The position numbers and the translations under genes are program-made. A stretch of DNA of 64,000 nt from Eledone cirrhosa. Its lineage: Eukaryota. Below are positions 20,455 to 21,260 of this stretch, piece by piece (the stretch's first letter is position 1; every line of letters begins with the position of its first letter). The notes beneath the pieces are model-generated. The model searched no databases. It had not been told where the DNA came from and saw nothing but the letters and a program-made list of their open reading frames with translations. Location of the stretch: the NCBI GenBank assembly GCA_964016885.1, contig OZ024741.1, positions 216,380,001 through 216,444,000 on the forward strand, in the 5' to 3' direction.

Positions 20455-21260
20455 ATAAGTATGTATACGGACATACATATATGTATACAGACGTACAGTA
20501 GTATGTATATATATACATACATGCATACATATATATATATGTGTACGTATGGATTCACCGAACATTTATTATAATGCTCGGTTTGTTTGTAAACAAACAT
20601 CCCGAATTAAGCCGTACAGTGTTTAGCAAACATTGTTGCTCATTTGTTCAACACTGACAAAGGAACGCTGTACTAGTTTCAAGCTTATTAGCTATCGTCA
20701 GCAACGTATACCTTCCTGCCAGATGATTGAACGTCTGAAAGTATATACTTTCCTTATGCATATTAACGGCTGAGCAGTACTAAGAGTGTGAAATGAAATT
20801 TCGTTTCATTTTTTCCGTTTATCGTTTTCGGTGCGCCCGGCCGATTAACTCACTCGATATGCAAATTAGGCTGCTCAGCCGTTAATATGCATAAGGAAAG
20901 TATATACTTTCAGACGTTCAATCATCTGGCAGGAAGGTATATGTTGCGGACGATAGCTAATAAGCTTGAAACTAGTACAGCGTTCCTTTGTCAATGTTGA
21001 TCAAATGAGCAACGATGGTTGCTAGACACTGTACGGCTTAATTCGGGATGTTTGTTTACAAACACACCGAGCAAGCATTATAATAAATGTTCGGTGAATC
21101 CATACGTACATATATATATGTGTGCATGTATGTATATATATATATATATACATACTACTGTACGTCTGTATACATATATGTATGTACGTATACATACTTA
21201 TATTTAAGTAACAGCCGTACTAAGAGTGAGAAATGAAATTTCGTTTCATTTTTTCCGTTT
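20455..21260. mobile_element. Diverged copy of the 468-bp hammerhead repeat, with internal inversion at ~20780
   Basis: Colinear with the array unit. HHR on minus at 20665-20707 (CTGACGA core) and on plus at 20941-20984 (core mutated to CGGACGA). ATGCAAAT at 20859. Confidence 0.85.

What the first reader, a model, noticed from the sequence alone, without database searches (positions are those of the whole stretch)
20455..21260. Diverged second insertion with the same termini, an inversion and a compensatory helix I change
Seen: helix I is acguug/cagcgu here versus acggug/caucgu in the array (G-U swapped for U-G), the core is CUGACGA, and the helix II loop changes while its stem does not. The left end (taagtatg) and right end (...ttt then ATAT) fall at the same unit positions as the big array, about 60 nt apart. 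The right arm is ~1.1 units with terminal redundancy (tactaagagtg...ccgttt twice). Inference: the ribozyme fold is under selection, integration uses defined priming sites, and the template is circular or multimeric. This argues that the array architecture is biological.
Basis: partly seen in the sequence, partly recalled or inferred. Interest (0 to 1): 0.75.

Follow-up and report, generated by a model that had tools for sequence, protein, structure and literature searches.

The report
Retrozyme pasted by two-site Penelope priming
This 810-base insert is one aged copy of a very abundant, protein-free repeat carrying a hammerhead-ribozyme motif; its two back-to-back halves end at two fixed positions about 60 bases apart, the footprint left by Penelope-type jumping genes, so it was likely copied from RNA by such an enzyme, as long suspected for animal 'retrozymes'.

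Summary
Observation confirmed, with corrections. 20453-21262 is a head-to-head pair of arms of a 440-bp non-coding unit with a type I hammerhead. The family is large (24,001 exact core matches). The 3' ends are fixed: 4,033 at site A, 3,385 at site B, and 2 at a control AT site between them. Of 73 head-to-head pairs, 48 have one A and one B end, 3 have like ends and 22 have an end elsewhere. This is the known Penelope-like 'tail'; young Neptune-type elements in this genome show it too (8 of 8). The G-U/U-G swap alone is about one event, but a 59%-identical sister family adds four double-sided pair changes around an unchanged core. Templates were longer than a cleaved monomer; circle versus multimer is unresolved. 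No autonomous partner sharing sequence was found. Verdict: a new non-LTR retrozyme family, likely mobilised in trans by a Penelope-like enzyme. The scan noted this footprint before on other retrozyme families of this genome.

The parts
20432..20456 (.). (TA)n tract at the left end; inferred target site
   Evidence: sequence; 115 of 128 A/B ends are followed by (TA)n
20453..20777 (-). Left arm, 0.75 unit; its 3' (outer) end is site A, its inner end is at unit position about 94
20665..20707 (-). Intact type I hammerhead motif: helix I ACGUUG/CAGCGU, core CUGACGA, helix II AGCU/AGCU, GAAA, palindromic CUAG, predicted cut after GUA between 20671 and 20670
   Evidence: Rfam Hammerhead_HH9 E 0.0069, 19.7 bits, below the gathering score of 52
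20773..20778 (.). Head-to-head joint of the two arms, 1-5 nt shared
   Evidence: family joints mostly overlap by 1-5 nt
20778..21262 (+). Right arm, 1.10 units; its 3' (outer) end is site B; 20778-20822 is repeated at 21218-21262
20859..20911 (+). Most conserved block outside the ribozyme: octamer-like ATGCAAAT (20859-20866) and 16-bp palindrome GAAAGTATATACTTTC (20896-20911); possible promoter (inferred, untested)
   Evidence: 53 of 56 letters identical between subfamilies; octamer kept in the sister family
20941..20983 (+). Decayed hammerhead of the right arm (core CGGACGA, helix I C-G to U-G)
21195..21210 (+). Hairpin UACUUA-UAUU-UAAGUA; site A (last base 21203) lies in its loop
   Evidence: predicted folds, (111-116 of 117 copies keep each pair)
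21204..21262 (+). The 59-nt 'tail' between sites A and B, with a second predicted hairpin at about 21227-21253; present at one outer end only
21260..21276 (.). (TA)n tract at the right end; inferred target site
31244..37420 (.). Young insertion of the other subfamily (78% identical): 5.9 units on minus ending at A, 7.3 units on plus ending at B; 11 full units identical but for one TA

Best explanation
This is an aged insertion of a non-coding, hammerhead-bearing repeat whose two head-to-head arms end at two fixed sites 59 nt apart in (TA)n, and it was likely written into the genome from RNA by the reverse transcriptase/GIY-YIG protein of a Penelope-like element acting in trans. Inferred steps: the repeat is transcribed; the RNA used as template is longer than one cleaved unit (a circle made after hammerhead cleavage, or an uncleaved multimer); the enzyme cuts both strands of a (TA)n tract and primes one DNA end at site A (a hairpin loop) and the other at site B (just 3' of a second hairpin), each with 2-5 nt of AU pairing; both cDNAs run towards the RNA 5' side, stop at scattered positions, and are joined by short microhomology, which gives a head-to-head insert with the tail on one side only. 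Shown: end positions, A+B pairing, target tracts, scattered inner ends, shared ancestry of the two arms, covariation of the ribozyme. Inferred: transcription, self-cleavage, circularisation, the identity of the enzyme.
For: Ends: 81 of 99 segments in a position-ordered sample end at A or B, against about 5% expected; genome-wide 4,033 A, 3,385 B, control 2. Pairing: 48 AB, 1 AA, 2 BB and 22 with an end elsewhere among 73 head-to-head pairs (one AB pair is a local duplicate); 23 of 23 AB among neighbours picked by their ends (overlaps the other samples in part, and two of the 23 are about 5 kb apart). Target: 115 of 128 A/B ends run into (TA)n. A young autonomous Neptune-type element (775-aa RT + GIY-YIG frame; own hammerhead; 55-nt tail) has one short and one long end in 8 of 8 head-to-head inserts fetched; two more families have 39-nt and about 64-nt tails. 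In vitro, a Penelope-like protein cuts and extends both strands and starts at two internal sites whose spacing is the tail (PMC11167929). The arms of one insert are closer to each other than to other inserts in 30 of 33 cases. 26 of 33 pairs have an arm over one unit, 22 of 33 have both arms past the cut site, and 0 of 72 inner ends lie at it. The sister family keeps core, CUAG, octamer and both end sites, with double-sided changes in helices I and II.
Against: None of the autonomous families examined shares sequence with the unit beyond short pyrimidine-rich end motifs, whereas 24 of 57 Xenopus retrozyme families had Repbase matches, nearly all to PLEs; the partner is unidentified. The ribozyme scores below Rfam's gathering threshold and folds no better than shuffles on its own (z -0.8). 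The test of whether both arms were copied in register from one molecule was inconclusive (104 versus 79 of 188 informative sites, p 0.08). Long heterogeneous arrays without canonical ends exist (L229-L231, L233-L234), so DNA-level amplification also acts and can explain unit homogeneity or two-unit alternation. All loci for the arm-length counts were chosen for holding the ribozyme region in at least one arm.
Confidence: 0.85

Rival explanations
1. The unit is not an independent retrozyme but the pseudo-LTR of an autonomous Penelope-like element that I did not sample; the inserts are its 5'-truncated ends.
For: Inverted truncated copies and tails are typical of autonomous PLEs; only a part of more than 10,000 GIY-YIG candidates was examined.
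Against: The unit closes on itself in head-to-tail arrays of up to 7-8 identical units with canonical ends; no recurrent joint to coding sequence in the mapped loci; the hammerhead has the canonical 6-bp/4-bp/short palindromic helix III form of retrozymes, not the minimal PLE form.
Confidence: 0.08
2. L1-style twin priming on one linear RNA made the inversion: the right arm starts just downstream of the site where the left arm was primed.
For: In this copy the right arm does start about 14 nt downstream of site A.
Against: Only 2 of 36 B arms start there; inner ends are scattered over the whole unit. There is no poly(A) and the outer ends are fixed.
Confidence: 0.03
3. A DNA-only process (satellite amplification, fold-back repair, rolling-circle DNA element) or an assembly artefact at (TA)n tracts made the structure; the hammerhead is a passenger.
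For: Two arrays of 10-21 kb lack canonical ends and show higher-order repeats; (TA)n tracts are fragile.
Against: Thousands of dispersed ends at two exact sites, one of each per insert; end B joined to (AT)n also appears as loose ends in 50 and 56 contigs of two runs of one sample; ribozyme covariation.
Confidence: 0.04

Closest known systems
Metazoan non-LTR retrozymes (Cervera and de la Pena 2020, PMC7229834, passages; Li, Clavereau and Pollet, bioRxiv 10.64898/2026.07.22.740005, parts 1-3 of 5 read)
   Same: Non-coding, low-GC tandem unit of a few hundred bases with one canonical type I hammerhead per unit, from dimers to long arrays, many thousands of copies, predicted highly self-paired circle (z -8.6), co-occurring PLEs.
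   Different: Unit slightly longer (420-500 bp against 170-400 nt RNAs); no target-site duplication can be read because the target is (TA)n; the passages I read do not describe fixed ends, a one-sided tail or head-to-head arms for retrozymes; no pLTR homology to an autonomous PLE found here; expression and circles not shown.
Endonuclease-bearing Penelope-like elements, Neptune type (Craig et al. 2021, PMC8557442, passages; Arkhipova et al. 2013, PMC3846280, passages; Frangieh et al. 2024, PMC11167929, parts 1-2 of 4 read)
   Same: Tandem plus inverted 5'-truncated copy, head-to-head layout, tail at one end only, (TA)n targets, hammerhead upstream of the tail.
   Different: No ORF; tail 59-62 nt (69-75 in the sister family) against the 30-40 bp described; canonical rather than minimal hammerhead; 2-5 nt of target pairing at the start sites, whereas the anole element starts without homology.
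Non-autonomous Chlamys elements such as MRC1 of Chlamydomonas (PMC8557442, passage)
   Same: Non-autonomous PLE-dependent element with multicopy head-to-tail insertions.
   Different: Those resemble their autonomous family at the 3' end; this one carries a hammerhead and has no identified parent.

Membership tests
Canonical metazoan type I hammerhead | Core CUGANGA and GAAA, NUH cleavage triplet | tested here: met
   Left arm and array: CUGA(C/U)GA, GAAA, GUA. Not met in the right arm (CGGACGA).
Canonical metazoan type I hammerhead | Helix I 6 bp, helix II 4 bp, helix III 1-2 bp with small palindromic loop (PMC4209133 passage) | tested here: met
   6 bp, 4 bp plus U-U, C-G closing CUAG
Canonical metazoan type I hammerhead | Covariation of the helices | tested here: met
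   5 of 13 pairs with double-sided changes, 0 of 500 shuffles reach the score, slid controls 0-1 pairs (13 of 77 haplotypes, chosen among those in two or more loci; related sequences, so not a probability)
Rfam hammerhead families | Score at or above the gathering threshold | tested here: not met
   0 hits in the window; best HH9 19.7 of 52 bits
Canonical metazoan type I hammerhead | Self-cleavage (as monomer or dimer) | not testable with these tools
   needs in vitro transcription
Non-LTR retrozyme | Tandem non-coding units of 150-450 bp, low GC, one type I hammerhead per unit, no LTR | tested here: met
   2,443 exact adjacent-unit matches for one subfamily; unit up to about 500 bp
Non-LTR retrozyme | Expressed as linear and circular monomer RNA | not testable with these tools
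   needs RNA reads or northern blots
Non-LTR retrozyme | Sequence relationship to the pLTR of an autonomous PLE (reported for part of the Xenopus families) | tested here: inconclusive
   no match in the families sampled; the sample is a small part of the genome's PLEs
PLE insertion footprint | Inverted 5'-truncated copy head-to-head, tail on one end only | tested here: met
   48 AB against 3 like-ended pairs among 73; 23 of 23
PLE insertion footprint | (TA)n target preference | tested here: met
   115 of 128 ends
Autonomous Penelope-like element | ORF with RT and GIY-YIG | tested here: not met
   no frame of 120 aa or more overlaps 20453-21262

The most novel reading that the evidence does not exclude
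A hammerhead-made RNA circle with no sequence kinship to any Penelope-like element hijacks a Neptune-type enzyme by RNA shape alone: two hairpins set two start sites, a dimeric enzyme primes both cut DNA ends on the same circle, one at each site, and rolls round it to write homogeneous head-to-head arrays. This would be direct genomic evidence for rolling-circle retrotransposition of an animal circular RNA and for structure-defined, obligatorily paired priming.
Probability: 0.3. Interest if true: 0.7.

Novelty: new member of a known kind. Interest (0 to 1): 0.45.

Why it matters
Which enzyme spreads animal retrozymes, and from which RNA form, is open: the papers read argue for Penelope-like elements from co-occurrence, shared ribozymes and pLTR similarity. 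Here a retrozyme family carries the mechanistic signature itself, in thousands of copies, with a near-strict rule of one A end and one B end per insert, and young intact Neptune-type frames in the same genome leave the same footprint. That gives a short RNA substrate with mapped start sites, a natural covariant (the sister family, with a longer tail) and candidate enzymes for an existing in vitro assay. The parts are known separately, so this sharpens a hypothesis and does not reveal a new system.

Tried and rejected
Twin priming: rejected (2 of 36). My first reading of the array's inverted flanks as duplicated target DNA: wrong; they are 3' ends of a Neptune-type element. Partner search: protein searches with three window PLE fragments and Pfam GIY-YIG, loci L100-L143, one L184-L201 unit and L235-L284 compared with the unit by blastn, L100-L153 scanned for hammerheads: no shared sequence; hits in L259 and L273 are retrozyme copies beside a PLE, and L273 was read as a nested insert in (TA)n. 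Same-molecule register test: inconclusive. Two-unit alternation in L087 as proof of a circular dimer: rejected as not specific, since it also occurs inside a long local array. Substitution load per region: not used, because loci were selected on the core. DNA search with the array subfamily returned nothing, probably because its words are too common. Consensus folding of the tail alignment in a script gave no structure; single-sequence folds were averaged instead. Alignment A2 used wrong coordinates and was dropped. Sequencing runs: no RNA holder listed. Run X5 laid nothing and X1 only short pieces. The paper search for an octamer-type promoter in newt satellite 2 did not confirm my recollection, so the promoter reading stays a guess.

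Full report
What is there. Window 20453-21262 consists of two arms of one repeat unit laid head-to-head between (TA)n tracts. Numbering the unit from 20778 (440 nt), the left arm (minus strand, 0.75 unit) runs from about position 94 to site A, and the right arm (plus strand, 1.10 units) from position 1 round to site B at position 45. The arms are 96% complementary over 203 nt. The large array at 31244-37420 has the same layout with 5.9 and 7.3 units of a subfamily 78% identical. Each unit holds a type I hammerhead motif: helix I of 6 bp, core CUGANGA, helix II of 4 bp, GAAA, palindromic CUAG, predicted cut after GUA. This matches the description of canonical metazoan hammerheads in PMC4209133 (passages). 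Rfam finds it only below threshold (HH9, E 0.0069). The right arm has CGGACGA and a U-G in place of C-G; both letters are private to this copy, and a core U-to-G change is expected to cripple cleavage (recalled, not tested).

Size and ends of the family. A 31-nt core pattern matches 24,001 times in the 3.0-Gb genome, reversed control 0. I mapped three samples: 29 loci closest to the left arm plus the finding and the array, 55 stretches covering the first 100 listed core matches on contig C1, and 33 stretches chosen for adjacent units. In the position-ordered sample, 40 of 99 segments end at A and 41 at B; the two windows cover about 5% of the unit. Genome-wide, the exact A end followed by AT repeats occurs 4,033 times, the B end 3,385 times, and a control AT site inside the tail twice. 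Most of the remaining ends fall at locus edges, at internal breaks or in the unit's own (TA)n stretch, which offers far longer target homology yet is seldom used. So the sites are not set by microhomology alone. Site A lies in the loop of a predicted hairpin and site B just 3' of a second one.

The pairing rule. Of 73 head-to-head pairs, 48 have one A and one B end, 1 has AA, 2 have BB, and 22 have at least one end elsewhere. One AB pair is a local duplicate; the AA case and one BB case lie in composite loci. Among neighbours taken from the A-end and B-end lists, 23 of 23 are AB. Inner ends are scattered; 0 of 72 lie at the cleavage site and 2 of 36 B arms start next to site A, so the twin-priming look of this copy is coincidence. 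Joints mostly overlap by 1-5 nt. 115 of 128 A/B ends run into (TA)n.

This is the Penelope-like footprint. Craig et al. (PMC8557442, passages) and Arkhipova et al. (PMC3846280, passages) describe an inverted truncated copy and a 30-40 bp tail often at one end only. Frangieh et al. (PMC11167929, parts 1-2 of 4) show that the anole protein cuts and extends both strands of AT-rich DNA, starts at two internal sites whose spacing is the tail, and does not need ribozyme cleavage for insertion. In this genome a very young family with a 775-aa RT/GIY-YIG frame, a Zn-finger-like CxxC linker typical of Neptune, a 4,204-bp tandem unit, its own hammerhead and a 55-nt tail has one short and one long end in 8 of 8 two-armed inserts fetched; for 5 further inserts only one end was read. 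A 784-aa family has a 39-nt tail and a third family about 64 nt. None shares sequence with the retrozyme unit beyond short pyrimidine-rich end motifs, so the partner remains unnamed.

Selection on the fold. At helix I pair 3, 130 copies from 85 loci show U-G 80, G-U 29, A-U 12, C-G 3, U-A 2 and 4 unpaired. On a tree of 113 inserts built without these two columns, U-G is one derived group with three U-U copies near its base, and G-U and A-U are outside or basal (weak support values). Stronger evidence came from a sister family found through a similar end hairpin: a 465-bp unit, collinear and 59% identical to the array unit, with AUAUUG/CAAUAU, helix II GAUGU/ACAUC, the same core, CUAG and octamer. 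Against it, two more pairs of helix I and two of helix II change on both sides and a U-U becomes G-C. On 13 of the 77 haplotypes, 5 of 13 pairs change on both sides and no shuffle of 500 reaches the covariation score (not a probability, the sequences are related). The sister family ends at the homologous sites: 11 ends at B and 10 at positions 446-457 among 24 segments from 13 of 20 loci, and 9 of 10 head-to-head pairs are A plus B, the tenth being cut by the locus edge; its tail is 69-75 nt (my script scored ends at 456-457 as 'other', I count them with A).

Template. 26 of 33 AB pairs have an arm longer than one unit and 22 of 33 have both arms past the cut site (lengths), so a cleaved linear monomer cannot be the template. 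The two arms of an insert are closer to each other than the median of other inserts in 30 of 33 cases. In young inserts all units of both arms are nearly identical (array: 11 units differ by one TA; L208: 0-1 differences among 9 passes), and in old ones all distances are similar, as if identical at birth. That is what rolling-circle copying of a monomer circle predicts, and the circular monomer is predicted to be strongly self-paired (z -8.6, partly owing to its palindromic microsatellite). It is also compatible with transcripts of young homogeneous arrays or with later homogenisation; long local arrays with higher-order repeats show that DNA-level amplification occurs. The register test was inconclusive. 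I put a circle at about even odds.

What is known and new. Non-LTR retrozymes and their proposed dependence on PLEs are published (PMC7229834, passages; bioRxiv 10.64898/2026.07.22.740005, parts 1-3 of 5). Six searches (listings only, open-licence library) showed no paper that reports PLE-type tails or paired ends for a retrozyme; I did not open any supplement, and the consensus files of PMC8557442 and the tables of the preprint may hold related families. Earlier notes of this scan report the same footprint for other retrozyme families in this genome; none matched this sequence or place. They are unchecked and were not used as support. Verdict: a real, new family of a known kind, with unusually clean statistics for a PLE-type two-site mechanism. 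Interest 0.45.

Noticed in passing
window 31026-31197 (+) and 37444-37700 (-): The big array sits between two inward-facing 3' ends (one long, one short) of a Neptune-type element with a 784-aa frame; they mimic an inverted duplication of target DNA. No hammerhead was found in that family by my scan.
   Followed up: partly
L184-L201; older copy at about window 15230-16862 (-): Very young Neptune-type family: many copies with identical search scores and 775-aa frames, 4,204-bp tandem unit, hammerhead with GUAC loop, 55-nt tail, an apparent upstream reading frame; probably active.
   Followed up: partly
L285-L304 (for example L298:753-1217): Sister retrozyme family, 465-bp unit, very young, with compensatory helices and possibly two adjacent A sites 6 nt apart.
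   Followed up: partly
L087:2337-4272: A 4.6-unit arm alternates strictly between two unit types (13-15 differences), one with a helix I mismatch: circular dimer template or local duplication.
   Followed up: partly
L229-L231 and L233-L234: Satellite-like arrays of about 21 kb and 16 kb of the same unit, heterogeneous, partly with a two-unit higher-order repeat, outer 3' ends not at A or B.
   Followed up: partly
L050, L051, L133, L002, L011, L040, L063 and others: Many further hammerhead families in this genome, most with palindromic loop III (CGCG with a 310-bp unit, UAUAUA, UAUGUA, UGCGCA, GUAC).
   Followed up: no
L265, L266, L268, L269, L273, L281: A Neptune-type family whose hammerhead-like motif reads UUGAAGA instead of CUGANGA in the copies read; tail about 64 nt.
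   Followed up: no
window 23242-24678 (-), 39163-40480 (+), 42813-44833 (+): Further broken Penelope-like RT copies; the 42-46 kb one is strongly C-rich on the plus strand.
   Followed up: partly
window 1212-2099, 11656-12234, 13019-13474, 24752-25204, 50077-50484: Remnants that look like other transposon or retrotransposon frames (labels from memory of motifs, not searched).
   Followed up: no
all loci: (TA)n tracts act as shared landing sites: dozens of different element ends recur next to them, often nested.
   Followed up: no
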